DNA of 64,000 bases from Prorocentrum cordatum (taxonomy: Eukaryota): positions 3,100,001 through 3,164,000 of the forward strand of contig CAUYUJ010000001.1 in NCBI GenBank assembly GCA_963575745.1, given 5' to 3'. The translations under genes were made by a program, and so were the position numbers. Under the pieces are notes generated by a model. The model did not search any database. It saw nothing but the letters and a program-made list of their open reading frames with translations, and was not told the origin of the DNA. This document shows, piece after piece, positions 2,779 through 58,593 of the stretch. Positions within the stretch are counted from its first letter, which is position 1, and every line of letters begins with the position of its first letter.

Positions 2779-5391
2779 AGTGTACTCGGTATTGCTTTTT
2801 GACAGGGAGTGTTGGGGGAGGCCGCATCGGGTTCGCTGCGCATGCTCGGAATTTGGAGACAGAGTAGTGTGTGTTTGCATTGTTTTTTTAAAAGGATGGT
2901 GGGGGCAGAGTGTGTTGTGTATTGTTTTTTACCAGGGATGGTGGGGGGGTGCCCGCATGGACCTGGGTTGGCTCCCAGTCGCCTGGGGGAGGGGGTGTAT
3001 ATTAATAGGGAACAGTGATAAACCCCTCCCCGAAGGGGAAGGAGGGGTGGAAGAGGAAACGTTCTAAACCACCGACGCCCACAGGGCTAGTGGGATTCAA
3101 CAGTCTCGTATACGCAATCGCACGCATAACAGATGGCCGCATCCTCGCCGTCTCTGGCTTGCCGGAGCGGGGCTAGGTCGGCCGGAACCGCTCCGTACGC
3201 ACAGAACAAGGACCTCACAAACTCGTTTGCCATTACGAAGGCTCAACCCGCCCTTCGAGAAAACTCGCAGTCTGGGTGCAACGCCGATCACTCACTGAAC
3301 GCGATGTCTGACATGAGCCCAGACGCAGGACGGTTGACCCACCAAGCGTGAAGCTCAGTGTCGAATGAGTGGAACAGGAGCGAGGCCCATGGGGCTGGGG
3401 AAGACTCCACAAGCGGCGAACTCAGTCTCCTGATCCCACTCCTCGAGCTGCCTCAAGCCCGTGATCGGGCGTGCTTCACGAAAGCGGCCTCTGTCCGAAC
3501 ATCAAGCTGGGCAGTGCACTCTTGTGGAACAGGGCTCCCGGGGCCCACGGCGAGTTAAGCACGTTCCGTCACTAGTGACAGCGTGATTGCACTGTTTCTG
3601 CTGCTGCGAATGGGCTGTCGAAACTAAAGAGCGCACCGCACTTTGACGATGCTCGATCCACACCTTAGATTTCTTACCGTTCATTTTGACCCTGAGTGGC
3701 GTCCAAAACATCGGGCGGATCCAAGCTCCAGCACGCTGATACTGTCCTCAGGCTGCCACTCCGACCTGGCCAGCGCTGCTCTCTCCGCAAGCATGCGGAC
3801 TTGCGGTGGGGCGAATCTAAGCAAGTCCTGTTTCCCCCCCCGCTCCGAAACGAAAAACCTCACCGACTCCCCCATCCACTCTGTCTCAGACAGGGTCAGC
3901 AGCAAGACGTGGGCAGGTGAGCACGCGGCCCCCACGTCGACCTGGAGGTCTGCAGGTGCCAACGAGCAGCTTCAAAGCAGGTCAGGAGAATGCTTAAACC
4001 GGGCCACCCTTCCCAAATTGCCTGGCACACATAGAAGCAACGCTTTCGTGGTAAAGCTCGGCAGGATCGATCTGGCCTCTCTCAATACGACAGACGCCTG
4101 AGCCCCACCGAGCAGGTCTTTTTTTATATCTCTGAAAGACTGCGCACCGCCTGGAGCCTCAAGCTGTGCAGACGCCTCCCAGGTCAACCCATAACCGAAG
4201 CTCCCCACGAACTGCCAGCCTGCGGCCCCGAGCGGTGCACCGCGCCCATCTCCGCACCGGCTTCTCGCAGCTTGCGAAGCTTCGCGGATCGGCGGACGCC
4301 TCGCCTCGCAGCTGCGAGTCCCAGTGCTGGCAATTAGCGTCTTGCAGCGCCCAACAGAAGCAGCTTCAGTGTCAAGATTTCTCGCCACCTCCTGCCGACG
4401 AAAACCCAGCTTGGACCACTCGGACCAACGGCGGGAGGCGACAGCCTGACATGAGGCCAGAACAGAACTCTTGGCACACTCGAGGACCAGTCGGCGAAAG
4501 GTGAACCCTTCGGCGAGACGTCTTCCTACGGCCCCCAACTGCTCCGACACGTGCGAAAGAGTCCCTACAGACTTTGCCGACACGTTGTCGACCACGTTGC
4601 GCAGCAGCATCGTGGGATGGTCCCGAGCGATGCCCCGTACAGCAGCACTTTCATCAGCGTCGTGGCTAGACTACATCGAGCTAGCACCGTGCCACCTTTG
4701 ACTGAAAATGTATCGCTGCAGCAATCCTGGAAGGTGAGTGCTCTTCGCCCACTGTGCAGCACGTGCGCCGCTCGAAGCACTTTCAGGCTGATACCTAGTG
4801 CTTTGGTTTCCAGACCGAGGGACCCATGGGAAACGTACTCATAGGCTTCTTGAGGTCCGTGAAAAGCGACGCAGTCTCCATCCCCATCGAGTGGCCGTAG
4901 AAGCCGACTAGGTTATGCTCCCAACCTGCCCTGCCACACGACCTGTCCCGTATGCCCCCCCTAGAAGCTCCAAGACGGTGTTCTCGCTCCCATTCCTGTG
5001 CCATGTCTTGGCGCGCAGGCGGCTCCACACACGAAGGAGGCTCGCTATCAAAGCGATCGGCCGAAGCCGTCCTCCTTCTTTGCCGATCAAAAATGATGAG
5101 CGTCGGTCACGCGTCGGACCAATTCAGCACCTGCTCCCACAGCTCCAGGAAGTCAAGCAGACTGATAAAAGAAACAGCTGTCCAGCAAACACCATGGACG
5201 GGGGTTGACACAGTCCCTGCCTAGACCAGCCTTGTGGTCAAACCTAAGGGGCGCACGTCTGAGCCTGGCCAACGACGGCATGGGCAGCTCCACCGTGTCG
5301 GCATCCACCCGCAAGGCCGAGCTCATCGGCTCTTTGCCGTCTAGCCAGTAGCCTTGCCACTTGCTGAGCAAGGCTTCTACTGCTGGGTCGC

Positions 5392-11563: not shown

Positions 11564-14065
11564 TACCGCGCATCCTCACCATACGGGTTGGCTGTACGAG
11601 TCGGTGTGCTTCTGCGCTTCTGGCGGGTGCGCCCGCGGGCCTGCTGGGCAGCTGGTCCAGCGTGTACAGGAAGCGTGTGTCGGAGGTGGCTCGGCCTCCT
11701 GCCCTGACACGTCGATTCAGGATTTTGCCGTTCTCGGCTCGCGCGAGGGCGTCGTGGCCGTCGTTTTTGCGGGTCCAGGTTCGTCGGTTTCGGTCCCAGG
11801 CCGTCTTCACTGAGGGGAGGTTGATTAAAGGGAGGTTTGTCCACCGCCGAACGTGTGGTTGTGCGCGCAGAGATGGCAAACAAGGGCTAGGAAGGGGATA
11901 GGGGAGGAGGCGGCGAAGCGGTAAACGAGGAAGACGAGGAGCATGCGTAGGAGATGGCAACAGAGGGAGCGGGGGAGGACCAGATGGTGGGTGCACAGGT
12001 GGCAGGACACAACGACGAGGAGGAACACGCGCAGAGTGAATGCGAGGAGGGAGGCGACACGGCGCGACTGTCTGGTTTGAGCTGGTGTGCAACATCTTTT
12101 TGAGTCGCGGTGTGGGGTCGTAAGCCTAAAACAACACAAACGGCAAACGTAGTGGAACACGCGTGTGGCAATTGAGCAGATGTTTGGAGCGAGTCCCGCC
12201 ACCGCCCGCGGGTTTTGGGACAGAGGATTCGTGGATGCCCGTGTTTTTCGGGGGGCGTCTCTGGGGCGCCTCTCGGAGGCATGTTGGAGACTCTTCGGAC
12301 GCCTCTTGGCCCAGCATAGTGACATCCTACGCGGAGTCTGCTTCGCCTTGATTTCCCTCCCTGCGGGCCTCCCGAAGACCTGGCGGCGTTCCTGCGGGCG
12401 TTTTCTTCCCCCGCGCTGCAGGGCGCAGGGAGGAAACTGCGTCTCTGGCGGGCGAGCTGGGCCTCGCTCGCTTCTTGTACTGGCTATGACCAGCCAGCCC
12501 TGTGAAGCGCCAGAGCGACACGGCGCGGGCCGCGCTGCTTGGTCCAGCGTGCCACTTGAACGTGATAACCAGCCGCCGTCCTTCTTCATCCCACCTCTCT
12601 GTTGTCGTTCTCTTCCTCCTCCCACCATCTCACTGCTGCTGTCGCGTGAACTCTTCGGCCCCTCTTCCGTTCTCTTCCTGCCCTCCATTCCCACTCACGT
12701 TTCCTCGTCGGGCCTGTGGCCTCAGTCCTCGTGATTACGTTGCTGTCCTGTGAGGAGCGCAACGCGTGCGTCTCTCATATCGCTTGCACAACCAATGACA
12801 TATCTGGTATTGCCATCAACCATACTATTCTTGACCAGCTCTCCATGTCGCTCAACGCAGATGGGTTAGGTTCGTTGCACGGTACTTGTGTTTTTGTCGG
12901 CATTTTCTGATAGTGAGCACGTGCGTCGAGTGCGCCAGTGGAAGTGGCAACGCAAGAGAGGAGGGGGACGAGGATCGATGATCCTCAGTACACGTGTTAG
13001 CACAGTGTGTGCTTGCCCCGTTCAGCTTTGCCGACGCATAGCGCGCAGCCTGTATCGGCCTTCACTATGCCGCCCTGTGTAGGCTTCGGCAGACAGGCAC
13101 ACGTTGGGGTTCACGCGCGCTCTGAGGGTCACCGAGAGAGGGAGGCAGGACAAGGAGGAGGCAGAGGAAGGTGAACATGAGCAGGAGGAGGAGGAGGCAG
13201 GACAAGGAGGAGGCGGAGGAAGGTGAACATGAGCAGGAGGAGGAGACGATGGCTCGGAGGAGTGGGAGGAGCAGGGGCGAGGGGCAGACGACGAAGGGCC
13301 TCCGAAGGGGCTCGTGCGCACCGGGCCCGCGCCCTCCCCCGGGGGGGGGGCCTCCCCGCGGAATGCGGTGCGCGGGCAGGGCCTCGCTTTCGCCGCGGGT
13401 GCTGCCCGTCACGCTGGCGTGCCCGGCGGGGAGGCCAGCGCCTCCGCCCCCCGGCCTCGTTCGCGCGCGTGTTGCTGCTGCTGCCCCTCCTTGGGCTGGC
13501 GGGCCCCCAAACGGTGTGGTAACCACACCGTGTGATGAGCCGAGGGGGTTTCGGAATGGCCGCACGGTCTTGTGGTTCGGGTCGTTCTCGGGGGGTGCGT
13601 CGGGTGATTGGGGCCGTGCGATGACGGACTGTGCGGCGAGGTCTTTTGAGATTTCGAGGTCGCCGCACGGTCCGTCACCTCACGGTTCTGGGTCCCGATT
13701 TCCATCCTCTCCTTTCTCGTTCCTCGCTTTTCTGCCTCCCGCTCCTCCTGTAAGTGCCCAAGGGCCGTGACGTGGGACACGCTCGTCCGCAAGCTCGAGA
13801 GGGCCGTGACACAGCAAGCATTACGAAATCGAGCCACCGGTTGCGCCGTTCTTTCAAGAACTGCACAACCGATGAAGCATGATGATTGAAGAATGCCATG
13901 TGTGCAGCTTGGCAACTTAAGTTGTTCTCCTACTCCTTCTTGTCCTCATTGTTCCTCCTACTCTCTCTGCACGACCTCCTGCGGGATTCTGTGGCCACGG
14001 TTCATTCGTGAACGTGGGTGCAATAAGGGCGGCGGCATGGGTAATGCAGCGAGGCGCGCACTTGT

Positions 14066-27824: not shown

Positions 27825-28084
27825 GGGATGACAATGACGATGCCGATGATGCTGACGATGCCGATGCCGATGACGATGACGCTGATGATGATGATGCTGA
27901 TGGTGATGATGCTGCTGATGCTGATGCTGACTGATGACGATGATGGTGGTGGTCATGGTGATGATGATGATGATGATGCTGATGATGATGATGATTATTC
28001 TAATGGTGTTCATGATGAGGAGGAGGAGGAGGAGGTTGATGATGATGATGATGGTGATGCAGAGGCTTAGGATGATGAGGATGC

Positions 28085-45441: not shown

Positions 45442-45624
45442 TGTCGGGCGTGTCCCCCTACAGGGGGATTTTCGACGAAAAATAAAAAATACCGAGAATA
45501 CACCAAAAGGTCAAAAAATAACAAACAAGTAGTCCCCGGACTATGTTTTGATTATTTTTTGATTATTTTTGGGGTATTTTTTTTTTTCGTCGAAAATCCC
45601 CTTGTATAGGGGACAGGCCCGACT
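45442..45624. mobile_element. MITE family C copy 2
   Basis: gtcgggcgtgtccccctacagggggatttt ... aaaatccccttgtataggggacaggcccgact. Confidence 0.85.
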
Positions 45625-46140
45625 TAATCCAAGCGTCACACGGATTGATGGAACGTCTTTCCCGAGTGTTTCTCGCCAGAGATTTCCCAGCATTTTCTGG
45701 ATCTTCCTCGGGGGAAGTCGGACAGTAGATTCTGTTTGAGGACTCGCCGCGTTTCAATATCTGGCCCGTGCCTGATGATTCCTTACATTTGATGATTGCA
45801 CCTGGGAGGGTACATGTCATGAATCTCGTTCAAGTGGCTTGCTCCATCCGCCGACTCCCAGAGCTTGCGACGGTCGTGGAAGTTATCGAAGACGCCCAGG
45901 GCGAATCACCACCGCCCCCTGCCTTTTGGAATCGCCCATGTGGCCGAACATTGTGGCCAGAGCTCTGCCAAGCTATTCGATCATGTGCTTCCCCAGCCGT
46001 TGTGGACACCGTTTGGCGAACACGCGGGGGAGAAAGAAAAAGCGGAGGAGAGGGAGGAGCAGTAGAGAGTAAGCTGAGGATGATGAGGAGGAAGAGGAGG
46101 CGGAGGAGGAGGAGGAGGAGGAGGAGGACGAGGAGGAGGA

Positions 46141-46324
46141 AGTCGAGAACATGGCCCTGGACCCCCTCCCCGACGGCGACGGCACAGCGGCGTGACCGCC
46201 GCTGCTGTGGCTCAAGGCCACACGCAGGACGCGTGCGCGGGGTGCACGCGTGGGCCCGAGGGCCCTGGAGCAATTGCGAGGTGCACCGAGGGCACTTCGA
46301 GCGGGGAAAGGACGCCCCGCGACT
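46141..46324 (+). repeat. 5' LTR (184 bp, AGTCG...CGACT)
   Basis: Direct repeat of 56407-56590. Confidence 0.93.
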
Positions 46325-46336
46325 TGGTAGCGGAGC
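46325..46336 (+). promoter_or_regulatory. Primer binding site, probably initiator tRNA-Met
   Basis: TGGTAGCGGAGC directly after the 5' LTR; TGGTAGC is complementary to the GCUACCA 3' end of many eukaryotic initiator tRNAs. Confidence 0.8.
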
Positions 46337-46571
46337 CCTGGTCCACTTCGGGCTAGGGCTCAGCGCTGCCACTGCGCGGCAGCCGGAGGAGTCCGGCTTC
46401 AAGCGGGTCATCGAGGTGACCCACGGGGCAGAGGCGGTCTTCATCGAGGTGAAGTACGACCACTCCGCAGACTACGATATCCGCTACGACAGCTTCAGTA
46501 CTGGACAGCTTCGGTACGAGAAGTATTCCGTATCACTGGCGTGAGCTTGCTCACAGACTACGTACACCCGA

Positions 46572-48212
46572 TTGTTTGGCGAGATGGAGCACCTACATCT
46601 CGAGGTTATGGGCAGCCTCAAGGTCCCGCCGGCGTGGAGCCCAGAACAGGGCAGACAGTACCCCTTCAGATTCTGGTTGACGGATGTGACGATGTGGGCG
46701 GCGGCGGCGGCGAGAGAGGTCATGCCCGAACAGCAAGCTCCAGCAGTTGCGCCACGACTCGGAGGCGCAGCAAGGAGCTTGGCGAGAGATATTCCACTGG
46801 GACAGCTACGATATGGAGCGATAGCAGACCCAGGCGATGGAGCAGGAGCGCGACAACTCACAGGACTGCAGCTCTTGCTGCTCGTTCTTTCTAGATCGTT
46901 TGCCCCGCTCGGTGACGAGAACGAGAGCAGGGCGACCTCAGACTTGCTGGGCTTCTACCGCAAGAGCTACGAGAACACAGACCAGACGCTCAGCAGGTTC
47001 GAGGTCACACGACGACGGTCAGCGGCTCTTGGAGGATTTCATATGGGACCACAGGGCTACGCTTGGATGTTGATGACGGCCCTGGGCTGTAGCCCTGCGG
47101 AGTGGAATGAGTTGCTGATCCACCTCAGAGGCCACTTGCCGAGGACAGAGCAGCAGTTCGCCGAGCTGGTTGAGTCCATTCGACGGTACGGACACGTTCT
47201 GGAGAAGGGGCCGATGTCGGTGAATCGAAGCAGCAAGGGCAAGGGCCACGGCCACTTCTTCTTTCCGACGTTCAACTTCGGCGGCGGCGACGGACATCAA
47301 GATGATCCAGCAGATGGCTACAGTGGCGGAGGCATGGCAGCATCGTGGGCCCCCTCGGCTCCCTGGACGCCTACCGCGGCAGTGCCGCCGGCGCCAGATC
47401 CATGGCAGGCCTGCTACGGCAACGAGTACGACGAGAACTACACGGATACCGATGACGACGACGGAGAGGGCCTGGACGGCTCGGATTTCCTTGGACAGAT
47501 CGGCCACGACGACGCGGTCATCCAACAGTACCTCTACCAGAACTACGTCTTTCATAAGAAGCGTTGGCGACGGTTTACAGGCAGACCTACGAGATTCCAC
47601 AGGTTCGGTAAAGGTAAGGGCGGAAATGGATCTCTGATCCCGTTTCGTGGAGGTGGAGCTTTCGGTCAACGTGGACAAGGTAAGGGCTACCACTTCGAAG
47701 GAAAAGGGCGACGAAATCCCACCGGACGTGACGGCAAGGTCATGAAGTGCCTCGCGAAGGGTTGCGAGAGCGAATTCCACCTAATCAAAGACTGCCCCCA
47801 CCGACAAGGCAAAGGGCAAGGAAAAGGCAATTTCGTCACGAACGGACCCCGGCCGGTGTCAGCGGCCTCGGCAGCGGTTCCATGGTTTGGATTCAACGAC
47901 GCCTCAGCCGCGTCGACGGCAGCGACGACAAGCAGCTCGGCCTACGGTTCTGGATCGGTGAGCTTCTTCGCCACGGAGGCAACCAAGAACGACAGCGAGC
48001 AGCAGGCGAGCGCGAGCGTGGAGGGCTCGCACGGCTTCGCCGGCGCGGTGATATCGCCAGTGCAGCCGAATGCCATTGAGGATAAGGCCCCGGAGTGGTT
48101 CGGGCCGAGACCGATGACGGAAGCATGGAGCCACCAACGACAGGATCGGCATTGTCCTCGAGCGGCGGGCCCTACTTATGTCACCGACCTTGGGGGCCGC
48201 CAAGTTCGGTGA
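46572..48212 (+). CDS. Gag-like ORF with zinc knuckle
   Basis: 546-aa open frame with KVPPAW and CLAKGCESEFHLIKDCP (C-x4-C-x4-H-x4-C knuckle variant). Confidence 0.85.
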   Translation: MFGEMEHLHLEVMGSLKVPPAWSPEQGRQYPFRFWLTDVTMWAAAAAREVMPEQQAPAVAPRLGGAARSLARDIPLGQLRYGAIADPGDGAGARQLTGLQLLLLVLSRSFAPLGDENESRATSDLLGFYRKSYENTDQTLSRFEVTRRRSAALGGFHMGPQGYAWMLMTALGCSPAEWNELLIHLRGHLPRTEQQFAELVESIRRYGHVLEKGPMSVNRSSKGKGHGHFFFPTFNFGGGDGHQDDPADGYSGGGMAASWAPSAPWTPTAAVPPAPDPWQACYGNEYDENYTDTDDDDGEGLDGSDFLGQIGHDDAVIQQYLYQNYVFHKKRWRRFTGRPTRFHRFGKGKGGNGSLIPFRGGGAFGQRGQGKGYHFEGKGRRNPTGRDGKVMKCLAKGCESEFHLIKDCPHRQGKGQGKGNFVTNGPRPVSAASAAVPWFGFNDASAASTAATTSSSAYGSGSVSFFATEATKNDSEQQASASVEGSHGFAGAVISPVQPNAIEDKAPEWFGPRPMTEAWSHQRQDRHCPRAAGPTYVTDLGGRQVR

Positions 48213-48859
48213 GATCACAGACGTGCCATCGGGGCCCACGTTTGGAATCGGACATATCTTGGGACTTTCATCGATAGTGGGCCCGCAGGATGAGGACGGA
48301 GATGGAGTGCCGGAGCCACCGACTGCTGAAGTTCCTCTCCCGAAGGCGACAGCGGGAATACCAGCGAAGGCACCTCCGATGGTATCGGAGATACTCGACA
48401 TCAAGAAGGCAGACGAGAAGCAGGACCCGTCTTCGATCAACATAGGCGGTTTGATCTTCAGCCCCGTTCCAGCGAACATGGTGACCCCCCAGAGCGCGAG
48501 CAGCGGAGTTCAGGATTCGGCGGCGAGCTGGGACAAGGTGTCGAGCGTGCCCGAGCAGCAGGTGGATTCGTCATCCTTCGACCTCGACGCCGAGAGCTTC
48601 TTTCAGCCTGGACATCCACATGAACGTGGGCGCCCAGAACTCCCGAGAGGAGCGGGCGAGATCGCCATTCCGGATGATGATGAATACACCGAGCATGACG
48701 GACAACACGAAGAAGCTGGAGAGACAACGACGGCCTGCAGATTCCTCAGGACAAGCACACAGGCGGAGTGGACTTCAGCGATGATCATGGAGGCTTCAAC
48801 GGTGTTGCCTGGACCCTGGGGGAGAACCGCGGGGGGACCTACCTGGGACACGAGCGCGC

Positions 48860-49320
48860 CCGGCTCGACGGTGGCGAGATGGGCGTCCTTGTGGACCCGG
48901 GAGCGCGCGGCAACCTCGTTGCAGAGCGCTGGGCGCGACAGCAAGCGGAGAAAGCCAAGCAATATCAGCACGACACGGAGAAGACCGAACTGCGAGAAGC
49001 CCTGGAAGTCAATGGAGTTGGACGAGGACCCGACTACTGCCACCGGCAATGGAAGATCCCCATCGGCACGCAGGAAATTTATCAGGAGGGCGATGGCAAC
49101 GGCAACCTGGACACGTACACGGCCCCCATCATTCCTTGAAGCGATGTTCCTGCGTTGCTGGGCAACAGTTCACTAAAGAAGCTCGATGCGATCTCGGAGT
49201 GCGGGCCTGGCATGCTACATCTATGCGGACCTGGACGCAGAGAGCTCGTTCTTCCAGCAGGGGCTCGCAGCTACAACCTGAAGGAAAGCAGAAGTGGCCA
49301 CTGGCTACTACCCTGTTCAC
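48860..49320 (+). pseudogene. Aspartic protease domain (one in-frame stop at 49137-49139)
   Basis: VLVDPGARGNLV active-site motif and SDVPALLGNSSL. Confidence 0.8.
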
Positions 49321-50784
49321 GATTCAGGGGGGCATCGACTTCCAGCGGCAATGCAGGATATCCTATCGACCGACTGCAACCTCACCCCGGGCGCTTGGAC
49401 TTCATGTGGGGCGATTTCCGGGGGGAGATGAGCGGCCTGGGCTTGGCGCTCAAGGAGATGTCGCAGCTGTGCGCCGAATGCAAGCAACGCGTGCAGAACA
49501 AGAGTTGGAATGGATTTCGACGCTCGCTGCAGGTGCATGGCATCTACAAGGAGTGTATTCCGAGCAAGAAGTGGGCCAGCATCAAGGAGATCTTCGGTGG
49601 CAAGAAGGAGAAGGAGGTGCGCTTCGAGGTGCTGCCGGATCCGGCAGCATCCTCGGGCCTTTGAAGGGGCAGGGCTCCGGCCGCGGCGGCCGGGGCAGCT
49701 GCCGAACGCCGTTCGGCGACGCCGCATCATCATTTTCACGCTCAAGTTCTTGGCCACCGTTTGGGATTGGCAACTACGATGCGCGCGGCGCGAGAAGGAG
49801 GACGGCCCGTGACACAGGTGATGGCCTACGACCAGGTGATAGGCAAGGAAGCGCGATATCTGAAACGACACCTCACCGAAGGACGCTTCCGGCTACTGTG
49901 GGCAGATCTACCAGGACGTCGAGGAGCTGAGCGAGGACAGCGACCACAACAGCGCTTGCGACTTCTTGAGGGCTGCGTGCGAGCGCAGGTTGCTGGGGGC
50001 GGAGACGCCGTGGTAGTTGCCGAGCGTGGGAGCTCTATGTGGGCGGACCCGACGATCTTGAAGCTCAGACGAGGTCCCCCACGAGGTGGAAATGAACTGG
50101 TGTTCTTTCGACGTGCAGTCTCTACCGGACGAGGCAGGATAACGGGGATGGAGTGACCGAGTAGACCGAGTCCAGCCTACGTTCACGGTTCGAGCCCAAC
50201 CATGTCAATGTCAAGGACAAGGACGTCGGCACAAGAGTGATTGGAGGAGCTCGTCCGGAAGCGACGAACGCAGACAACAGCGAGACGAACAGCGCGCACA
50301 GTATTTGGTGGCGATGTTTCGGGAGATCAACGACGCCCTCTTGCTAGAGGGTAACCGTTTACCGCCAGAGTCGAGAACTATGGAAGCGCCTGCGGGCGAG
50401 ACCAGGGCAGGCAACGATGGGAACTCCTACCCGACGGAGGCGAGGATGCGCGCGAAGATGAAGTCGCTGACCGACAAACCGAAGGAGGCCAAGAAGCAGA
50501 AGTTCGAGATCGAGAAGCACTTCGACGACTGCGGCGACAGTGCCAATGGCTTGGCCATGGACGACTCCCTTTTCGCTATCTATGAGGACACGGACATGTA
50601 CTCGGACGACGACGATTAAATTAACATGTTCGTGGGGGAGGAATTTGACGATGGCAACAGTTACGCATCATGCCTGCGGGGAGTTGCCGGAGATGACGGA
50701 GCAACCTGGTACGAAGGACCAGGAGTCAGGAAAGCAGCAAGCCTCTCTCACCTCACAGCTTACCTGGCGAAGGCGGCCTCCGGC

Positions 50785-51489
50785 ATGGATGTGTTGGAAA
50801 TTTGCGGAGGGCGAGGCTGCGTCTCCAGGATTTGCGTGCGAAGAGAATGCAGAGTGGGACCCGACTGGAAATTTGCGGAGGACGAGGCTACGTCTCCAGG
50901 ATTTGCGTGCGAAGAACATGCAGAGTGGGACCCAACTTCGACATTGTTTGCGGTGCGGACTTGTCGGATCCCAACGAGCAGTGGACGCTGTGGCTTTACT
51001 TGGAGCGTGGAGTGATGGCTGTTATCATGGCACCTCCATGTGCTCCCCTACGGACGTTTCTCCAGCGTAAATTTGGTCAATGCGACGGAGAACTGGAGGG
51101 AAAGTTATGAGCGATGCAGGCCGCTGGCCTTGCTGTGCGGAGAAGTGGCGCTGTACCAGCTGCGGAAAGATCGAGCCTTCATCAACGAGAACCCAGCCGG
51201 CTCCAAGTTATATCAAGAAACACCGTGGCAAGCAGTTGCTCAGTTTCCTGGAGTCGTATACGCTGTGGTGGATCAGTGCATGGCCGGACTGAAGAGTGCT
51301 CGAGGTATACCACAACAGAAGAGGACGGAGTTATGGGCATCCCACGAGGCACTACTTCGACACGTGGTTGGATATCAATGCGACGGGAGTCACATGCATG
51401 ATACTACTGAAGGACGAGAAGCCACGTCGAGGGCCAGATTATGGCCCTGGAGATTCGCGGTGGCTATCGCCAATGGCGTTTCAGACTAG
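50785..51489 (+). pseudogene. Cytosine-C5 DNA methyltransferase-like domain in pol (frameshifted)
   Basis: DVLEICGGRG (motif I-like), IMAPPC (IV), FINENP (VI), DQC...QQKRT (VIII-like), WPWRFAVAIA (X-like) in canonical order. Confidence 0.78.
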
Positions 51490-52129
51490 CTGTCGGAGAA
51501 AAGAAACGCAGAAGTCAAGACGTACTTGCAGGACGCTACGGCGTATCCCGGGGCAGCGGCGGCATCGCCATTCGAGGAACGCGGGCCCTGGGTTCCGCCC
51601 TGGGATCCGCCGCCCCCCTCCAGATGCATTGCCGGAAGGAGCTGGCAGAAGGAGGCTGTCCAGAAAGACAGAATACGCCAGTGTACCAGCACCTGTTCCT
51701 GAAGATGCCCCAGCACCAGCACCGGGGCCGCCGGCGGCAGCGATTCGGCCACCAGATCCGAGGACGCAGCTACCACGAGTGCGAGAATGGGAATGCCGAG
51801 CTTGCAACGGAGCACATGTTCCACACTCTCGGATACCTGGAAAATGTCGGATTGCTACACCAGGAGTACGAACATGGAGATGTGAGCAGTGTCAGCGAGG
51901 CAAGCCCGAAGATGCACCTGGACATACCCTCGTGGCAGGACAGTGTAGATGGGCAACCGAAGTGGGCCAAAGACCAGCTGGAGGGGGGCGCCGACGAGCA
52001 CGAGCAGCTGCCCACGACCCAGCACCAGGAGCAGCCGAACCAAGACCGGACGGACCTGTGAATGCTGCAGATGTCCCAGACTCACCAGCACGACCCGAAG
52101 TAGATCAAGGTATGGAGGTGGACTGGTCT

Positions 52130-53000
52130 AGCTGGGATCTTGGATCCGCCTGGCGAGCGTTGTTCGGCAATAGCGAGGCAGTGGCACGAAGAGTGCTACG
52201 TTGATTGCACCTGAGGTGGTTCCACGCCGACAAGAAGGCCATGAAGCGCATGCTCTCGGCCGGAGGCGTGCCGCCCAAGGTCTTGCAGATGGTCGACGAC
52301 ATCGTGGACACCTGCCGAGTCTGCCGATTGTGGATGAAGAAGGGAACCAGGGCGACCACGACGATTAAGCTGAGTGTGCAGTTCAACGACGAGGTGCAGT
52401 TGGACCTTATATTTTATGAACGACGCGTTGTTGGACATCTCATCGACGGCTGTACTAGGTTCACCGTGGCGCGAGAACTTCCAGATAACACGATCGAGAC
52501 GCTCTTGGACTTCATATGGGTGAACTGGATTCAGGTTTTCGGGCCTATGGCAGTACTGGCCTTCGACGGCGAAGGAGCTATGGCATCAGGAGAAGCTGGG
52601 GTGGCTCTCGGACGCATGGGGACCACGCGCAAGCTGAAGGCTCCAGGACAACACGCGCAAGTAGTTGAACGACATCGTGATATACTACGCAGGCAGATGC
52701 GCGTCATAGACGCACATCCCCAAGAGCTCGGCATCAAGTTGCCCTTAGCTCGAAGATTGGCCGAAGCAGTTCTCGCCTAGAACTCGTTCCTGACGATCGG
52801 AGAAGGCACGCCATACAAAGCACTTTACGGACGTGTGCCTCTTGTTCTCAGGGATTTTGACAGGAGTGGAGCTCGAGAGTTGGATGATGAGGATGGGCTA
52901 GCTATGTTCAGGCACTCGCAGAGGCTCCGAGAGCTCGCGACCATGTCCATCATCGAGGCCGCGGCACAGGCGAGGACGGAACGAGCGGCCAAGGCACGAA
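52130..53000 (+). pseudogene. DDE integrase (in-frame stops at 52203-52205 region and 52778-52780)
   Basis: HLRWFH...CRVC (HHCC), VQLDL, AFDGEG, VERH, TPYKALYGRVP. Confidence 0.9.
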
Positions 53001-54339
53001 CTGCCCCGGCGACGGAGGATCTGCATTTGGAGATCGGAGACCTCGTGGATCTCCACAAGCCGGGGAAAGCGCCAAAGGATGTGCCGCGTTGGAAGGGACC
53101 AGCCAAAGTTGTCTCGGCACAAGCACCAGAGACGGGGACGATTACCATACCCTGGCAAGGACGCGACATGATAGTCAACACTCCTGATGTTAGACGTGCG
53201 ATACTGTATCGCTACTCAGTATCCTTCATGGCGGTTGAAAGCGACCCAGCGCTGATTCTATTGGACCACGTACATAATATCAGAGAAGGCTTCGAGCATC
53301 TCGGCTGGGCGAGCACGTCATCAGGATGGGCTCTGACGAAGATATCCAAGAGCTATCCCATCGTGGTGGTGGCCATGCTCCAAGTCGCTTCTTGCGGACT
53401 TCATATCAACGGAGCAGTGGCCGCCCGAGTTGGCAGGAAGGTACCAACACTTCCTGGACTTCACGATTTCGAGTACTACACTTTGTGTTGGTGGACTGCG
53501 AAGCGTCTGGATAAAGGAGATTCCGGAGTAGAGGCCATGTGCTATGGTGAGGGATCTGCAGCAGAACATCTCAGCCTTCGATATATCTTCGGCGAAAAGG
53601 AATGGGCTTCGTGCTATTTTCGTGCAGTTCCTGACTGTGGAGCCTGATGTTTTGGACGTCTTGCAAGGACAGGCGCCGCAGATACCAGACATGGGCGGAC
53701 CTCACCTACCAGGAGTTGACGCATGGATGCGCGAACATCGAGAGATGCGGAAAAGGGCGCGTTCGGAAGGATCGCAGGGCTCGGAAAATCCAGCAGAGCA
53801 TATAGCAAGAAGGCTGGAAGATGAACCGCCAGATAGACCAGAACCACCTCCCGGGCTGCCAACGCCAGCTGAACCTACACAAGCAGCAGATGATGGCGCC
53901 AGCACACCAGCCAGCGGGAGTACGGTTCCAGCAGAGGCAGCGTCGTCATTGCAAGGATTGTACAGCCTGGAGGCTTTCTGGGCAATACACAAGGAGGACT
54001 CGGACTTGACGAGGGACGTGGATGAGAACGATTTCATGGGCATGATCGGCTACTTCACGGAAGAGCCAGACATGTCCGTTCTCGAGCGGAACGAGATCAT
54101 CCAGGACTACGATGTGATGGAGGCCTGGAACACGCAGAACACCACACACGCGAGGGCGACGGGCGACATAGTGGAGTCACTGCAACCGGAGAAGGCCTTC
54201 CAGGTAGGATTCGCAGCAGGAGCCTGGAATATGCAAAACGAGCCGACCATCAATGGAGACCCTACGCATGTGGACGATGTGGCTGCGTTGAGCTTCTACG
54301 AGGACGGATCCGCCAAGGCCGTGATGGAGAGAGATGACA

Positions 54340-55981
54340 ACTTGCTGACGCCTGCCGAGAAGATCGAACACCGAGAAGCAGTTCGAGCGGCACGACTTAA
54401 GGAGTTACGTCACTTGGCAGGATTCAAGGCCACGTCGAGGCGACCTCGTAGGCAAGCCAAGAACCTCATCGACGCGAAGTGGGTTGATAAATGGAAATGG
54501 GTACAAGCAGCAGACGGAACTATGACCATAATCATACGATGCAGGCTTACGGTACGTAGTTTTGAAGACAGACACAAGGATGAGGTGAAGACGTTCACCG
54601 CGACCAGTACGAGATGGGGACAGAGAGTGGTGAATATTCTCGCAGCGCAGCATCGTTGGAAGCTATGTAGCGCGGACATCTCATCGGCCTCCCTACAGGA
54701 AATGACTTTCGAGGAGGTCGCGAAGTTGCTCGACGAGCCGATTTGGGACATCTGTTTCGAGATGCCGAAGGGCACAGCTGAGCTATTATGCGAAGTGGAA
54801 GGTTTCGAGGGTTTCAACTCGATTTTGGAGGTCTTGCATATGGAGAAAGGAGGATTTGGTCTCAACGATGCCCCGAGGTTATTTTGACTTCGACGTGATC
54901 AAGTTTTGTTGTCGAGCGGGCTTAGGCCAACACATGCGGACCCTCAGCTCTGGCTGAAGCACATCCAGGAGGTTCTGGTAATGGTTGTTTCCACTCATCT
55001 AGATGATCTGAGATACGCGGGAACCGATAAGGCGACCGGCGAGATGATTTCATCCCTGGAGGCAGTTTTCGGCAAGATGACTATGAGGGAAAGCAACTTT
55101 TTGCAATGTGGCCTGCGCCACAGGCAGCTTGAGGATATGAACATCGAGGTGGGCCAGACCGAGTATATCAAGAATTTGAAATGTATCGATGAGAAGGAAC
55201 TGCAGGGCAGAGGAGACGACGAATATCCACCGGAGAAACACGTGAAGCTACCCGTCTTTGCTTGGAGCTATCGCGTGGTGCATCATGACGAGGATTGACA
55301 TATGTATCTATGTTGCAGCACTCCAACGCCACGGCAAGGCACCGAAGGTTGGACACATCAGGAAGATGAATGTGTTACTTAAGTATATGAAGGAGAATCC
55401 TTTGGTTTTGACTGCGCAGAGGTTGACTCCTCCCGTGAAGCTGATGGCTGTTGGAGATGCGGCATTCCGGAGAGAACCCGACGATAAGGATTTGGCTATG
55501 CGCTGTTTATTTGTTGATCGAGACGAAGCAGGAGCTTGGAGGTAGATGCAACGCTTTAGAATACGATTCCTGGAAACAAGCTAACGTTGTACGATCCACT
55601 TGGGGAGCAGAGTTATGTCAGTTTTCAGATTGCTGTGATTATTTATTGCTGCTGGCCGGCTTCTTGACAGAAGTTCAGACGTGAGAATTGGCGGCCAGAC
55701 ATCTGCGAGACATGGTCGACGGAAGCGAAGCTGGTATCAAGCCAGCAATTGATCTGGAAGGCTGTGTGGATGCCCAGAGTATGTTTAGTGGCATCACGGC
55801 GGAGCAGGTGCGGATTCCGGCGGAGAGACATACTCTGTACCATGCTAAATGGATCCGAGAACTTCTGGAGCGAGGTATACTGAAGAGATTGTGGTGGACC
55901 GACGCGAGGGATTTCTGTGCGAATGGACTAACGAAAGGAGCTGTTTTACGAGACGCACTGAGGTGCGTCGCACGAGGCTAG
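54340..55981 (+). pseudogene. Copia-type reverse transcriptase and RNase H (several stops and frameshifts)
   Basis: IDAKWVDKWK, RCRLTVRSF, SADISSA, FGLNDAPR, STHLDDL; RNase H GDAAF, STWGAEL, VDAQS, ANGLTK. Confidence 0.92.
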
Positions 55982-56406
55982 TGGAAGACGGTGCACGAGG
56001 CACTACCGTGGACCTCTTCAGGACGAGTGCTCCAGAGTGTCGGCTCGAGTTGAGCATGGTCGTGGAGACCGCGGTGTTCATGGTTTTTTTTGGCATCCAG
56101 GTGGAGGTTTGGATCGGCGTCAGGACGCTAAGTCGCCGCGCGGGTCTGGGCCTCGCAACGGACACATCGCCGGGCCCTCCTCAGTCACGCTGACGCGTAG
56201 GAGGTCCGGCTAGGATGCTGCTGAGGCAGTCAGTCCGCGGGGTTCCGCCCATTGCTGGGCGAGCTCAAAATTATGTACATGACGGACCAGTCCGTGGAGA
56301 CAGATTGGTACGTGGACTAGGCCGACCTTGTGGGGTTCACGGGCGTGTACTCGTGGAAGGTCAGATGCGAGCTGGAGATCAACGACCTGAACACGTTCAC
56401 CACCAG

Positions 56407-56590
56407 AGTCGAGAACATGGCCCTGGACCCCCTCCCCGACGGCGACGGCACAGCGGCGTGACCGCCGCTGCTGTGGCCCAAGGCCACACGCAGGACGCGT
56501 GCGCGGGGTGCACGCGTGGGCCCGAGGGCCCTGGAGCAATTGCGAGGTGCACCGAGGGCACTTCGAGCGTGGAAAGGATGCCCCGCGAGT
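56407..56590 (+). repeat. 3' LTR (184 bp)
   Basis: Direct repeat of 46141-46324. Confidence 0.93.
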
Positions 56591-56724
56591 GAGGAGGAGG
56601 AGGAGGAGGAGGAGGAGGAGGAGGAGGAGGAGGAGAGCCCCTGTGGCTCAGGCGTCTGCCTGAGGAGGGGCCATTCGCTTGCACGTGCGAGCCGCTGTTC
56701 TCCCCCCTTGCCCCCCGCGCCGCC

Positions 56725-57666
56725 ATGGTCTCAGCAGCCAGGCTCCATTGGATCATCCAGGAGCTAGCGAATGGCCGCCAAGGTGCTGTCAACATGTGCA
56801 GCCGCAGCGGCAAGCTGATCATGCAGATCTGCCTGTTCCCCGTCTGGGAGCCGACTATGCGGAACAGCCTCATGATAAGTTTGCTCCACATGGTGCAGCT
56901 GGACATCGACGACGCTAGTATCGTGGACCACGGGCACAAGAACTCCAAAGGCGAGTCCCGCATCCGTCTTGTCGTGAAGCCCCTTCCGGTTTTCTTCGGA
57001 GGCTTCTCTGATGCGCCGCCGGACACGCGTTCTGCGGTGCAGGAGGGCTCCGAGCGCCAGACGCGCGCCGAGTCCATCGGGCCAGTCCTGGCGCACGAGA
57101 AGGATGAGTCGTCCAGCGTGCAGCTTCCTGGTGAAGGTGGCGCGAGTGGCTCGGGCTCTGTGGCGATGGAGAGCGAACCCTGTGCCAAGGCGGAGACTGA
57201 TATTGATGTGGTGAGGCCCCAGCGGCACGGAAAGGCCATTGTTCCTCAGCAGCAAGGCGAGAAGCACACATTCGTTCCAGGCATGGCCGCGCGCCTTGTT
57301 GGCCTCAAGGCTAGGCCGCTGCTAAATGGTCGCGAAGGCACCCTGTGCTTCTACGGCGACGCTGCTGACCGCTGGGCCTTTAAGACTGGTGCGGAGGCCA
57401 TTCGTGTCAAGGCATCTTGTCTTGAGCCTATCGGCTCCCATACGAAGAAGTCTCTCGGCATGGCGTTCCAAAAGGCCGCTTTCGAGCGCCAACATGTGGA
57501 CCCAGTTGCTAACGACCAGGTGTTCCAGATATTGTACGACCTCGCTGCTCAAGAAGGGCAGCCTGGGGTGGCCGCTGCATTCCTACCGTTGCTCAGCGAC
57601 AAGACAGCCTTCGACAAGATGTACTGCCACACGGCCGCCAGGAGTCCTGAGATCGTCTACCAGTGA
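56725..57666 (+). CDS. Intronless 313-aa ORF of unknown function; putative SL-headed retrogene (insert 56636-58018)
   Basis: Open ATG-to-stop frame of normal complexity; SL-like AGCCCCTGTGGCTCAGG at 56636-56652; A-rich AAGAAAGAAAAAA at 58006-58018; contains ARLVGLKARPLLNGREG..DRW..IRVK, an SH3-like beta module. Confidence 0.7.
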   Translation: MVSAARLHWIIQELANGRQGAVNMCSRSGKLIMQICLFPVWEPTMRNSLMISLLHMVQLDIDDASIVDHGHKNSKGESRIRLVVKPLPVFFGGFSDAPPDTRSAVQEGSERQTRAESIGPVLAHEKDESSSVQLPGEGGASGSGSVAMESEPCAKAETDIDVVRPQRHGKAIVPQQQGEKHTFVPGMAARLVGLKARPLLNGREGTLCFYGDAADRWAFKTGAEAIRVKASCLEPIGSHTKKSLGMAFQKAAFERQHVDPVANDQVFQILYDLAAQEGQPGVAAAFLPLLSDKTAFDKMYCHTAARSPEIVYQ

Positions 57667-58485
57667 GTGGCGCTTAGCTGCATTCTTGGTGCGCCTAGTG
57701 CATCCATTCTTGCGCCCCCATTCGCCATTCCTTGCGCCCCACGTCGTCCGTTGGGTTGCGCTTCTCGTCATGGCTGCTGGCGCCCCCATGTACGTTGGGG
57801 CTGCGCTTCCCGCCTAAGGTCCTGGTTTCATGTGCTACTCGTTCCTTCGGGCGAGTGCAGTGTTGCCAGGTCTTGCGGGCGAGATTCGGCTGCGTCTCTC
57901 GTGCGCGTTGCTGCTCTCCTCGTCCCTCGCTATACTTGCCGCCTATCTCACCGCTGACGTATGCATGTGTGGACACCTCAGACATTGGTCCCTCAGGGCT
58001 GCGGGAAGAAAGAAAAAAGGAGGAGGAGGAGGAGGAGGAGGAGGAGGAGGAGGAGGAGGAGGAGGAGGAGGAGGAGGAGGAGGAGGAGGAGGAGGAGGAC
58101 TCTTGGAGCCTTCTGGCGGCCTTCTGGGAGCTTTTTTTGGGCCTCTCCGGGTCCTCTTGGAAGCCTCCGTGGGCCTCTAGGGGGCGTTTTGGGGCTTTTT
58201 GGGGGTCCCTTGGGCCGTCCTAAGGCGTTCCTGGCTCGTCTGACGCCGTCGGAAGCCGTCTTGGGGGCCGCTCTGAACCGACTCGGGGCCTTCTTGGGGC
58301 GCTTCAGGGCCGTCCAGGAGGCCCTCTTGGCCGTCTTGGAGACTTCTTGGGCCGTTATGGGGTAACCCACGCGAAGGGGAGCACCTTGGGATTTGGAAAA
58401 ATGCACGCTCTAAACCACTCACGTGCTAAGTGGCTGGTGGTATTTTGCCGCAAATCGTGCATAGTTTTTTTCTGTGCAGGGATGA

Positions 58486-58578: not shown

Positions 58579-58593
58579 CCAGGTTGCGGGGGC

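What the first reader, a model, noticed from the sequence alone, without database searches (positions are those of the whole stretch)
46131..46340. LTRs end in AGTCG...CGACT rather than TG...CA, and no polypurine tract is visible
Seen: LTR identity starts at AGTCG (46141 and 56407). The 5' LTR ends in its reverse complement CGACT, followed without a spacer by the PBS. The 3' LTR ends CGAGT. Upstream of the 3' LTR the sequence is acacgttcaccaccag, which is not purine-rich. Established: almost all LTR elements have TG...CA ends and a PPT. Inference: an integrase with altered end specificity and possibly a different plus-strand priming route. The boundary could be off by 2 nt, but no shift produces TG...CA, so standard LTR finders would miss the family.
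Basis: partly seen in the sequence, partly recalled or inferred. Interest (0 to 1): 0.7.

Follow-up and report, generated by a model that had tools for sequence, protein, structure and literature searches.

The report
Dinoflagellate copia retrotransposon with AGT...ACT ends
The repeats are the two ends of a decayed copia-type jumping gene of a dinoflagellate; they really do end in AGT...ACT and not the usual TG...CA, and no purine-rich primer tract precedes the second repeat, which is unusual but has precedents in fruit-fly gypsy elements and in a published Symbiodinium element.

Summary
Observation confirmed. Window 46141-56590 (+) is one 10,450-bp Ty1/copia-like LTR retrotransposon (integrase before RT). 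Its nearest proteins are from Prorocentrum cordatum. The LTRs are 184 bp with 4 differences.

- **Ends:** they read AGTCG...CGACT (CGAGT in the 3' copy). The PBS TGGTAGCGGAGCC follows directly.
- **Upstream of the 3' LTR:** the last 15 nt are 40% purine, and the last 300 nt hold no purine run of 7 or more.
- **Insertion site:** the element sits in a (GAG)n microsatellite, so a 5-bp TSD (GAGGA) fits but proves little.

Support from elsewhere:
- A diverged metagenome relative (L031, LTR 63% identical) keeps the first 9 and last 9 LTR bases. It also keeps 31 of 32 bases before the LTR.
- In the published data for Symbiodinium SmTCL3, 5 of 5 copies end ...CAACT, and 4 of 4 readable copies have 5-bp TSDs directly outside AGTTG...CAACT. 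The authors drew TG...CA three bases further in.

AGT...AnT ends are known from Drosophila errantiviruses. This is therefore a new variant of a known kind, not a new mechanism. An integrase that accepts ...ACT-3' ends is a reasonable inference. A different plus-strand priming route is not shown: the primer site is conserved but not purine-rich. An earlier scan had already noted the worn spliced-leader copy in LTRs of other copia elements of this genome. Interest is moderate.

The parts
46076..46140 (.). Left flank: (GAG)n microsatellite, the insertion target. The last 5 nt, GAGGA (46136-46140), are the candidate target-site duplication.
   Evidence: TRF: period 3, 21.7 copies. Flank comparison.
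46141..46324 (+). 5' LTR, 184 nt. Starts AGTCG (46141-46145) and ends CGACT (46320-46324), a 5-nt terminal inverted repeat.
46196..46216 (+). Worn copy of the dinoflagellate spliced leader inside the LTR: 15 of 21 positions match, ungapped, and the last 9 nt TGGCTCAAG are intact. It probably marks the start of R. The same block lies at 56462-56482 in the 3' LTR (14 of 21).
   Evidence: Alignment to the DinoSL printed in the abstract of PMC5585692. The same block is present in L031 and in the LTR stretches shown from supplementary files 8, 9 and 10 of PMC5776459.
46325..46337 (+). Primer binding site TGGTAGCGGAGCC, directly abutting the LTR. It is complementary to a tRNA 3' end ...GGCUCCGCUACCA.
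   Evidence: The same 12 to 13 nt follow the LTR in 3 of 4 Symbiodinium SmTCL elements, in L031, and in contigs with gag homologs.
46545..48212 (+). gag-like ORF (555 aa, open) with a C-x4-C-x4-H-x4-C knuckle-like motif.
   Evidence: tblastn finds homologs just downstream of the same PBS in L021, L023 and L025, at 29-42% identity. No Pfam hit.
50143..51489 (+). Conserved pol segment of unknown family between gag/protease and integrase, with 2 in-frame stops. A 71-bp tandem duplication lies at 50795-50937.
   Evidence: tblastn finds a homolog in L021, 27.5% over 360 aa, E 2e-22. No Pfam or PDB sequence match.
52205..53647 (+). Integrase with an HHCC finger and a D,D,E core (1 in-frame stop).
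   Evidence: Pfam rve, E 0.0013, below the gathering score. 77% identical over 193 aa to P0002. Motifs read from the translation.
53949..55999 (+). Reverse transcriptase (to about 55265) and RNase H (about 55246-55999). Decayed: 1 stop in the RT frame, several stops and frame changes in RNase H.
   Evidence: Pfam RVT_2, E 2.6e-4, below the gathering score. tblastn with P0001, P0002 and P0003. P0003 carries PF07727.
56375..56406 (+). Conserved, non-purine-rich block immediately before the 3' LTR (GAGATCAACGACCTGAACACGTTCACCACCAG). It is the likely plus-strand primer site.
   Evidence: 31 of 32 nt identical in L031, while the 28 nt further upstream match at 7 of 28. Purine content. No significant RNA fold, z = +1.35.
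56407..56590 (+). 3' LTR, 184 nt. Starts AGTCG and ends CGAGT; the C to G change at 56589 is private to this copy.
   Evidence: L031 has CGACT at that place.
56591..56635 (.). Right flank: perfect (GAG)15. The first 5 nt, GAGGA, are the candidate target-site duplication.

Best explanation
The feature is the LTR pair of a single, old (LTRs 2.2% diverged) and decayed Ty1/copia-like retrotransposon of a dinoflagellate, inserted into a (GAG)n microsatellite.

**The ends.** The LTRs truly end 5'-AGTCG...CGACT-3'. Both 3' ends of the double-stranded cDNA that integrase joins to the target therefore read ...ACT-3' and not ...CA-3'.
- Right end: set by the tRNA primer. The PBS, complementary to a tRNA ending ...GCUCCGCUACCA (probably initiator Met), abuts the last T.
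- Left end: set by a plus-strand primer that ends ...CACCACCAG. This site is conserved in sequence but is not a polypurine tract.

**Shown:** the anatomy; conservation of both termini and of the pre-LTR block in a diverged relative; the same AGT...ACT plus 5-bp TSD design in Symbiodinium SmTCL3.

**Inferred:** the integrase of these lineages has co-evolved to accept AGT/ACT ends, as the errantivirus integrases of Drosophila are thought to have done. RNase H leaves a sequence-specific primer that is not purine-rich.

The LTR also carries a worn spliced-leader copy that probably marks the U3/R border.
For: **Anatomy and family.**
- LTR pair, inverted repeat, abutting PBS and composition.
- Integrase lies before RT, with weak rve and RVT_2 matches.
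- Nearest proteins are 77% and 63% identical and named Prorocentrum cordatum. A third relative carries PF07727.

**The microsatellite** stops exactly at 46140 and resumes exactly at 56591.

**Relative L031** (metagenome contig, positions 794-963):
- LTR is 170 nt and 63% identical overall.
- The first 9 of 9 and last 9 of 9 LTR bases are identical, as are the next 14 bases (PBS).
- 31 of 32 bases before the LTR are identical.
- Adjacent stretches match at 7 of 28 and 7 of 16.

**SmTCL3** (supplement of PMC5776459):
- 5 of 5 genomic copies share ...TTCAAACAACT and then diverge.
- 4 of 4 readable copies (the fifth is Ns) have ATACC, TTAAT, ATTAG or ACCCC on both sides, directly outside AGTTG...CAACT.

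**Same PBS elsewhere.** TGGTAGCGGAGC follows the LTR in 3 of 4 SmTCL elements.

**Metagenome contigs.** Contigs with ...GACT|TGGTAGCGGAGCC have gag homologs downstream (L021, L023, L025; L004 weakly) or RT/RNase H homologs upstream (L034, L021).

**Sequencing runs.** In run X1, 358 Logan contigs lie on the element, split 39/87/190/42 into the identity classes 99+, 95-99, 90-95 and under 90%. Diverged copies therefore exist. One contig of run X2 bridges the LTR/PBS junction (46160-46401) and another the internal/LTR junction (56341-56575, 1 gap).

**Precedent** for AGT/AnT ends: PMC5408687 and PMC3601003 (passages).
Against: - Only one copy lies in the window and no genome is held. No solo LTRs or further insertions of this family with unique flanks could be read.
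- The TSD is uninformative because both flanks are (GAG)n.
- L031 has no host flank. Its contig runs internal end - LTR - PBS, as collapsed assemblies of LTR elements do, so its left LTR boundary is placed by homology with the window.
- The metagenome pattern contained GACT. Its hits therefore cannot say how common such ends are, and 42 hits is about the number I estimated for chance.
- 3 of 4 SmTCL elements have ordinary TG...CA ends with TSDs GACTC, GAGCC and CGTAG. The trait is not general to dinoflagellate copia, and whether the window's family is close to SmTCL3 was not tested.
- SmTCL3 has a good purine tract (GAATGAGGGGGG) before its AGT, so the two oddities need not be linked.
- The conserved pre-LTR block lies in an open frame in both copies, and its single difference is synonymous in that frame. 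Coding constraint is not excluded.
- No integrase or RNase H activity was tested.
Confidence: 0.75

Rival explanations
1. The copy is truncated or its boundaries are misplaced. The family's real LTRs would be longer and end TG...CA, with a polypurine tract.
For: Only one copy lies in the window. The microsatellite flanks make the TSD uninformative.
Against: - Identity stops at the same bases at which the (GAG)n flanks stop.
- The ends form a 5-nt inverted repeat, and the PBS abuts the right end.
- L031, 63% identical in the LTR, keeps exactly these ends and the same non-purine sequence before the LTR.
- A truncation would have to have hit both LTRs symmetrically and been inherited.
Confidence: 0.04
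2. The ends are canonical for the family and were changed in this dead copy by mutation after insertion.
For: The copy is decayed, with stops and frame changes across pol. One terminal base did mutate: CGACT against CGAGT.
Against: - Both LTR starts are the same AGTCG, and L031 has the same start and end.
- With 4 differences in 184 nt, the coordinated change of four terminal positions is not expected.
Confidence: 0.02
3. The ends are real, but plus-strand synthesis uses a truly different route and not a primer left at the U3 border. One example would be a host RNA annealing to the minus-strand DNA. The minus strand reads ...CGACT-C-TGGTGGTGAAC... next to the LTR, which mirrors the LTR-PBS arrangement ...CGACT-TGGTAGCGG... 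of the 5' end.
For: - No purine tract is present.
- CCAG directly precedes AGTC in the window and L031, and in the position I infer for L011.
- The block is conserved.
Against: - The 17 nt concerned do not look like a tRNA 3' end beyond ACCA. The base where C61 would fall is A; this parse rests on recalled tRNA numbering.
- L021 has CCTG|AGTC and SmTCL3 GGGG|AGTT at that place.
- Priming there would add one base (G) that is not in the 5' LTR.
- The window and L031 are one family, so the recurrence is weak evidence.
Confidence: 0.08
4. The 184-bp repeats are not retroviral-type LTRs. They would belong to another class, such as a DIRS-like or Penelope-like element or a segmental duplication.
For: Short repeats, odd ends, no PPT.
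Against: - A DDE integrase with an HHCC finger precedes an RVT_2-type RT and RNase H.
- A tRNA-type PBS follows the 5' repeat.
- gag homologs follow the same PBS in other contigs.
Confidence: 0.01

Closest known systems
SmTCL3, a Ty1-copia-like element of Symbiodinium microadriaticum (Chen et al., ISME J 2017/2018, PMC5776459). Main-text passages and supplementary files 2 and 9 were read in part.
   Same: - Dinoflagellate copia-type element of about 9 to 10 kb with short LTRs (179 nt as annotated there, 185 nt by my reading).
- A spliced-leader relic lies inside the LTR.
- By my reading of the published alignment, the ends are AGTTG...CAACT, with 5-bp TSDs in 4 of 4 readable copies.
   Different: - The authors annotated TG...CA three bases further in, so the AGT...ACT reading is mine, not theirs.
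- SmTCL3 has a purine-rich tract before the 3' LTR and a different PBS (GGTTATCAGCC after ACT).
- Kinship of its pol with the window's was not tested, because its sequence could not be passed to the tools.
Drosophila errantiviruses (gypsy, ZAM and Idefix subgroups; Metaviridae)
   Same: LTR ends are AGT...AnT and not TG...CA. Some have 5 to 7 fully complementary terminal bases (PMC5408687, section 4 passage; Zam clade AGTTA...TAACT in PMC3601003). In the window the ends are AGTCG...CGACT.
   Different: - Those are Ty3/gypsy-type elements (RT before integrase, many with env) of insects, described there as target-specific.
- The window's element has integrase before RT.
- A 4-bp duplication (recalled for gypsy) does not fit the flanks here; only 2, 5, 8 or 11 bp fit.
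- The resemblance is therefore convergent.
Non-TGCA Copia elements of plants (LTR_retriever preprint, bioRxiv 10.1101/137141; passages read, Supplementary Table S2 not seen)
   Same: Mostly Copia, with short LTRs (mean 272 bp) and non-canonical terminal dinucleotides, including types that end in CT (TACT is named in the passages).
   Different: The passages state that the first nucleotide T is invariant among the seven plant types. Here the first nucleotide is A, and both ends are changed symmetrically.
Diatom CoDi families without TG/CA (CoDi3.2, 4.2, 4.3; Maumus et al. 2009, PMC2806351, passage read)
   Same: Copia-like elements of a marine protist lineage that lack the TG/CA terminal repeat (3 of 26 families).
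   Different: Their actual terminal sequences are in an additional file that could not be read here. Whether any is AGT...ACT is unknown.
The other three SmTCL elements (supplementary files 7, 8 and 10 of PMC5776459)
   Same: - Same PBS core TGGTAGCGGAGC, at 0 to 1 nt from the LTR.
- Short LTRs.
- A spliced-leader relic in the stretches shown for files 8 and 10.
- Two of the three (files 7 and 8) also lack a clear purine tract before the 3' LTR.
   Different: Canonical TG...CA ends, with TSDs GACTC, GAGCC and CGTAG.

Membership tests
Ty1/copia (Pseudoviridae) LTR retrotransposons | Integrase encoded before reverse transcriptase and RNase H | tested here: met
   rve-like region at 52205-53647, RVT_2-like region at about 54800-55070, RNase H to about 55999.
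Ty1/copia (Pseudoviridae) LTR retrotransposons | RT of the RVT_2 (PF07727) family | tested here: inconclusive
   The direct Pfam match has E 2.6e-4 and 21.1 bits, below the gathering score of 31.6. The 50%-identical relative P0003 carries PF07727 in the database's precomputed annotation.
Ty1/copia (Pseudoviridae) LTR retrotransposons | LTR pair, with a PBS complementary to a tRNA 3' end (usually initiator Met) next to the 5' LTR | tested here: met
   184-nt LTRs, and TGGTAGCGGAGCC at 46325. The iMet identity itself was not testable: no tRNA gene lies in the window and no genome is held. The implied A1:U72 pair is an initiator hallmark by recall only.
Ty1/copia (Pseudoviridae) LTR retrotransposons | 5-bp target-site duplication | tested here: inconclusive
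   GAGGA fits on both sides, but 2, 8 and 11 bp fit as well because the flanks are (GAG)n.
Ty1/copia (Pseudoviridae) LTR retrotransposons | TG...CA terminal dinucleotides (usual, not universal) | tested here: not met
   The ends are AG...CT, and no shift of 3 nt or less gives TG...CA.
Ty1/copia (Pseudoviridae) LTR retrotransposons | Polypurine tract directly before the 3' LTR | tested here: not met
   40-42% purine in the last 10 to 15 nt, and no purine run of 7 or more in the last 300 nt.
Errantiviruses (Drosophila gypsy/ZAM/Idefix group, Metaviridae) | AGT...AnT LTR termini | tested here: met
   AGTCG...CGACT, against the description in PMC5408687.
Errantiviruses (Drosophila gypsy/ZAM/Idefix group, Metaviridae) | RT and RNase H before integrase (Ty3/gypsy gene order) | tested here: not met
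   Integrase precedes RT. It is therefore not a member; the resemblance is limited to the ends.
Plant non-TGCA Copia (the seven LTR_retriever motif types) | One of the seven listed end motifs, all beginning with T | tested here: not met
   The ends are AG..CT. The passages of bioRxiv 10.1101/137141 say that only the first T is invariable. The full motif table was not seen.
Dinoflagellate copia-like elements with a spliced-leader relic in the LTR (SmTCL-like) | DinoSL-derived block inside both LTRs | tested here: met
   15 of 21 matches at 46196-46216 and 14 of 21 at 56462-56482, with ...GGCTCAAG or ...GGCCCAAG. The block GGCTCAAG is seen in the LTR stretches of SmTCL files 8, 9 and 10 and in L031.
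Dinoflagellate copia-like elements with a spliced-leader relic in the LTR (SmTCL-like) | Shared PBS TGGTAGCGGAGC | tested here: met
   Window; SmTCL files 7, 8 and 10. SmTCL3 differs.

The most novel reading that the evidence does not exclude
A lineage of dinoflagellate copia elements has replaced both canonical cis signals of LTR replication at once. The integrase joins ...ACT-3' ends and not ...CA-3' ends. Plus-strand synthesis starts from a conserved, sequence-specific primer that is not purine-rich (...ACGTTCACCACCAG|AGTC), or even from a host RNA annealed to the PBS-like mirror sequence on the minus strand. That would mean co-evolved integrase and RNase H specificities that differ from those of all characterised Ty1/copia elements. 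A whole class of elements would then be systematically mis-bounded or missed by motif-based LTR annotation in dinoflagellate genomes.
Probability: 0.2. Interest if true: 0.7.

Novelty: new variant of a known kind. Interest (0 to 1): 0.45.

Why it matters
- **Annotation.** Dinoflagellate genomes are huge and rich in retroelements, and their annotation leans on tools and habits that expect TG...CA and a polypurine tract. Here at least two copia families (this one and published SmTCL3) end in AGT...ACT. In the published case the ends were drawn three bases too far in. Boundaries, TSDs, insertion ages and solo-LTR counts for such families will therefore be off, or the families will be dropped.
- **Mechanism.** This is an independent second occurrence of the errantivirus-type AGT/ACT end, now in the copia lineage. 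It gives a natural comparison for asking which integrase residues read the terminal bases.
- **Plus-strand priming.** The conserved but purine-poor sequence at the plus-strand priming site is a concrete, testable exception to the polypurine rule.

Tried and rejected
- **Genome search:** none is held for this window.
- **Other copies in the window:** none. blastn of the LTR and of the whole element found only the element itself, and tblastn with the relatives found only this pol.
- **tRNA genes in the window:** none, so the PBS could not be compared with the host's initiator tRNA.
- **Related loci by protein pattern:** nothing in viral contigs or in metagenome contigs. A first alignment was too loose to search with.
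- **Sequencing runs:**
  - No RNA holder is listed. Only two DNA runs hold a small share of the words, 0.15 and 0.06.
  - Laying them gave short contigs without their letters.
  - The 'joints' 46140 to 56589/56590 have 20-nt sides made of (GAG)n. I do not count them as empty sites.
  - No loose ends at the LTR borders were among the 15 of 65 rows shown.
- **Rfam on 45500-57200:** one chance-level row, E 0.7.
- **RNA folds:** the fold around the internal/LTR junction is no better than shuffles, z = +1.35. The U5-PBS region folds into two hairpins, z = -2.64, which I did not pursue.
- **Second LTR copies or 9-nt inverted repeats in the 42 metagenome loci:** none. L021 against L036 places the LTR start at AGTCAAATG or up to 4 nt earlier, which is ambiguous. 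The LTR starts of L011, L023, L035 and L041 are motif-based guesses only.
- **The pol segment 50143-51489 and its L021 homolog:**
  - No Pfam family.
  - No PDB sequence match better than E 0.03.
  - The protein atlas gave only a 0.76 lead to DNA_methylase.
  - Its methyltransferase look is therefore unconfirmed here.
- **Diatom CoDi end sequences:** supplement not readable.
- **Earlier-notes look-ups:** nothing by place (near), by sequence, or for words on LTR ends.
- **Literature:** four full-text searches found no paper that reports AGT...ACT ends for a copia-type element or for dinoflagellates. Subscription journals are not covered.
- **Phylogeny of SmTCL pol against the window's pol:** left out, because the SmTCL sequences exist only in a paper's supplement and could not be passed to the tools.
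Full report
**What is there**

The window holds one pair of long direct repeats around the finding: 46141-46322 and 56407-56588, 98% identical over 182 nt without gaps (blastn E 1.5e-88). Read to their ends, they are 184-nt LTRs (46141-46324 and 56407-56590) with 4 differences.

The 10.1 kb between them carries, on the + strand:
- an open gag-like frame (46545-48212);
- a long stretch without database matches;
- an integrase (52205-53647);
- a reverse transcriptase and RNase H (about 53950-56000).

The Pfam matches are weak. rve has E 0.0013 and RVT_2 has E 2.6e-4, both below their gathering scores. However, the order integrase-before-RT is the Ty1/copia order. The nearest database proteins are 77% and 63% identical and are named Prorocentrum cordatum. 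A third relative, 50% identical, carries PF07727.

The integrase has an ordinary H-x4-H-x29-C-x2-C finger and a D..D..E triad (read). The copy is decayed. Integrase and RT each have one in-frame stop, the segment 50143-51489 has two, and the RNase H region has several stops and frame changes. That fits LTRs 2.2% apart.

No other copy lies in the window, and no genome is held for it.

**The observation**

- Both LTRs start AGTCG, and the base before differs (A at 46140, G at 56406).
- The 5' LTR ends CGACT, a perfect 5-nt inverted repeat of its start. TGGTAGCGGAGCC follows with no spacer.
- The 3' LTR ends CGAGT and is followed at once by a perfect (GAG)15.
- The sequence before the 3' LTR...ACACGTTCACCACCAG, is 40-42% purine over its last 10 to 15 nt, against 56% for the internal region. 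There is no purine run of 7 or more in the last 300 nt.

The microsatellite breaks off and resumes exactly at the LTR ends, which helps fix the boundaries. It also makes the target-site duplication uninformative. GAGGA fits, but so do 2, 8 and 11 bp, and outward shifts of the boundaries also yield a duplication. The boundaries therefore rest on LTR identity, the inverted repeat, the PBS and the microsatellite break, not on the TSD.

**Is it a private accident of a dead copy?**

No.

A scan of metagenome contigs for the 17-nt LTR-end/PBS junction returned 42 loci, about the number I estimated for chance. One of them, L031, is a diverged relative of this very family. Its contig runs internal end - LTR (794-963, 170 nt) - PBS, as collapsed assemblies of LTR elements do. 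Its LTR is only 63% identical to the window's. Even so, the following are identical:
- the first 9 of 9 LTR bases (AGTCGAGAA);
- the last 9 of 9 LTR bases (CCCGCGACT);
- the next 14 bases (PBS);
- 31 of 32 bases before the LTR.

The stretches beside these blocks match at only 7 of 28 and 7 of 16. L031 has CGACT, so the G in the window's 3' LTR is a private change.

This pattern is what cis-acting ends look like: highly conserved termini and a highly conserved site before U3, set in a fast-evolving LTR. L031 has no host flank, so its left boundary is placed by homology.

Other hits of the same scan are real copia contigs too.
- gag homologs (29-42% identical to the window's gag) lie downstream of the PBS in L021, L023 and L025, and weakly in L004.
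- RT or RNase H homologs lie upstream of the LTR in L034 and L021.

Because the pattern contained GACT, these contigs say nothing about how frequent such ends are. Their LTR starts could only be guessed.

Logan contigs of one DNA run also show that diverged copies exist. 358 contigs were laid, 190 of them 90-95% alike. Single contigs of a second run bridge the LTR/PBS junction and the internal/LTR junction.

**An independent family with the same ends**

Earlier notes of this scan pointed to the Symbiodinium SmTCL elements (PMC5776459). That paper's supplement holds annotated sequences and an alignment of five SmTCL3 copies.

The authors annotate the SmTCL3 LTRs as TG...CA (3866..4044 and 12860..13038). 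The alignment shows otherwise.
- All 5 of 5 copies share ...TTCAAACAACT and only then diverge.
- All share AGTTGAAAC at the start.
- In the 4 of 4 copies whose 5' flank is readable (the fifth is Ns), the five bases outside AGTTG and outside CAACT are the same on both sides: ATACC, TTAAT, ATTAG and ACCCC.

SmTCL3 therefore ends AGTTG...CAACT with a 5-bp TSD. With the authors' boundaries, no TSD exists.

By the same reading, the other three SmTCL elements have ordinary TG...CA ends with TSDs GACTC, GAGCC and CGTAG. They carry the same PBS core as the window, TGGTAGCGGAGC, at 0 to 1 nt from the LTR.

Dinoflagellate copia elements thus come in both kinds. AGT...ACT is a recurring design there, not an artefact. 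Whether the window's family and SmTCL3 are sister lineages could not be tested.

**How it most likely works**

The right end of the reverse-transcribed DNA is set by the tRNA primer, and the PBS abuts the final T. The left end is set by the plus-strand primer, whose last base is the G of ...CCAG. Both 3' ends offered to integrase therefore read ...ACT-3' and not ...CA-3'. The simplest reading is that the integrases of these lineages have adapted to that end. This is inferred, not shown.

The same terminal trinucleotides, AGT/AnT, are described for the errantiviruses of Drosophila. A review calls them the exception among LTR elements (PMC5408687, section 4 passage; also the Zam clade in PMC3601003). 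Those elements are Ty3/gypsy-type, so the likeness is convergent.

For the missing polypurine tract, the evidence argues against 'no primer site' and for 'an unusual primer site'. The 32 nt before U3 are nearly invariant between subfamilies, although they are not purine-rich and do not fold better than shuffles. Two of the three TG...CA SmTCL elements also lack a clear purine tract, while SmTCL3 has a good one. The two oddities are therefore not tied to each other.

Two caveats apply.
- The conserved block lies in an open frame in both copies, and its one difference is synonymous there, so coding constraint is not excluded.
- The minus strand beside the LTR reads like a mirrored PBS (...ACT-C-TGGTGG...). 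I list this as a low-probability rival.

**Other structure in the LTR**

Positions 46196-46216 match the dinoflagellate spliced leader printed in PMC5585692 at 15 of 21 positions, with the 3' TGGCTCAAG intact. L031 and the LTR stretches shown for SmTCL files 8, 9 and 10 carry the same block. This agrees with what earlier notes of this scan reported for other copia elements of the same genome. It suggests a U3 of about 55 nt, with R starting at the leader copy.

**Novelty and verdict**

Non-TG/CA ends are known:
- AGT/AnT in errantiviruses;
- seven motif types in plants, all starting with T (bioRxiv 10.1101/137141, passages);
- 3 of 26 diatom CoDi families, whose end sequences I could not see.

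Four full-text searches found no report of AGT...ACT ends in a copia-type element or in dinoflagellates. Subscription literature is not covered.

I rate this a new variant of a known kind. The integrase inference is reasonable. The alternative-priming idea is open. The practical consequence is real: motif-guided annotation misplaces or drops such elements, as the published SmTCL3 boundaries illustrate. Interest is moderate (0.45).

Noticed in passing
window 46196-46216 and 56462-56482: Both LTRs hold a worn copy of the dinoflagellate spliced leader (15 of 21 and 14 of 21 matches; the 3' TGGCTCAAG is intact in the 5' LTR). The same block is in L031 and in the published SmTCL LTR stretches that I saw (files 8, 9, 10).
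   Followed up: partly
window 50143-51489; L021 289-1224 (- strand): A pol segment between gag/protease and integrase is conserved in a metagenome relative (27.5% over 360 aa). It has no Pfam or PDB sequence match. By eye it has methyltransferase-like motifs, and the protein atlas gave only a weak DNA_methylase lead (0.76).
   Followed up: partly
window 50795-50937: A 71-bp tandem duplication (93% identical) lies inside that pol segment. Because 71 is not a multiple of 3, it shifts the frame.
   Followed up: no
PMC5776459 supplementary files 2 and 9 (SmTCL3): The published LTR annotation of SmTCL3 (TG...CA) lies 3 nt inside the ends indicated by the authors' own five-copy alignment and the 5-bp target duplications (AGTTG...CAACT).
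   Followed up: yes
window 46300-46360: The end of U5 and the sequence just after the PBS fold into two strong hairpins (-37.3 kcal/mol, z = -2.64). The second hairpin includes the 3' part of the PBS.
   Followed up: no
window 56403-56406 (CCAG before the 3' LTR); L031 790-793; L011 (inferred position): CCAG directly precedes AGTC at the LTR start. On the minus strand this reads ACT-C-TGG..., a mirror of the LTR-PBS junction.
   Followed up: partly
window 58018-58099, 58593-58878, 59790-59920: More trinucleotide arrays, (AGG)27 and a (TCC)n-like array, and a 92-96-bp tandem repeat (3 copies) lie just downstream of the element. (GAG)n-type microsatellites are common here, so insertion into one may be chance.
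   Followed up: no
window 22001-24000 and 26001-28000: Two 2-kb blocks have a GC content of about 0.46-0.47 and a GC skew of about +0.5, unlike the rest of the window (0.52-0.68).
   Followed up: no
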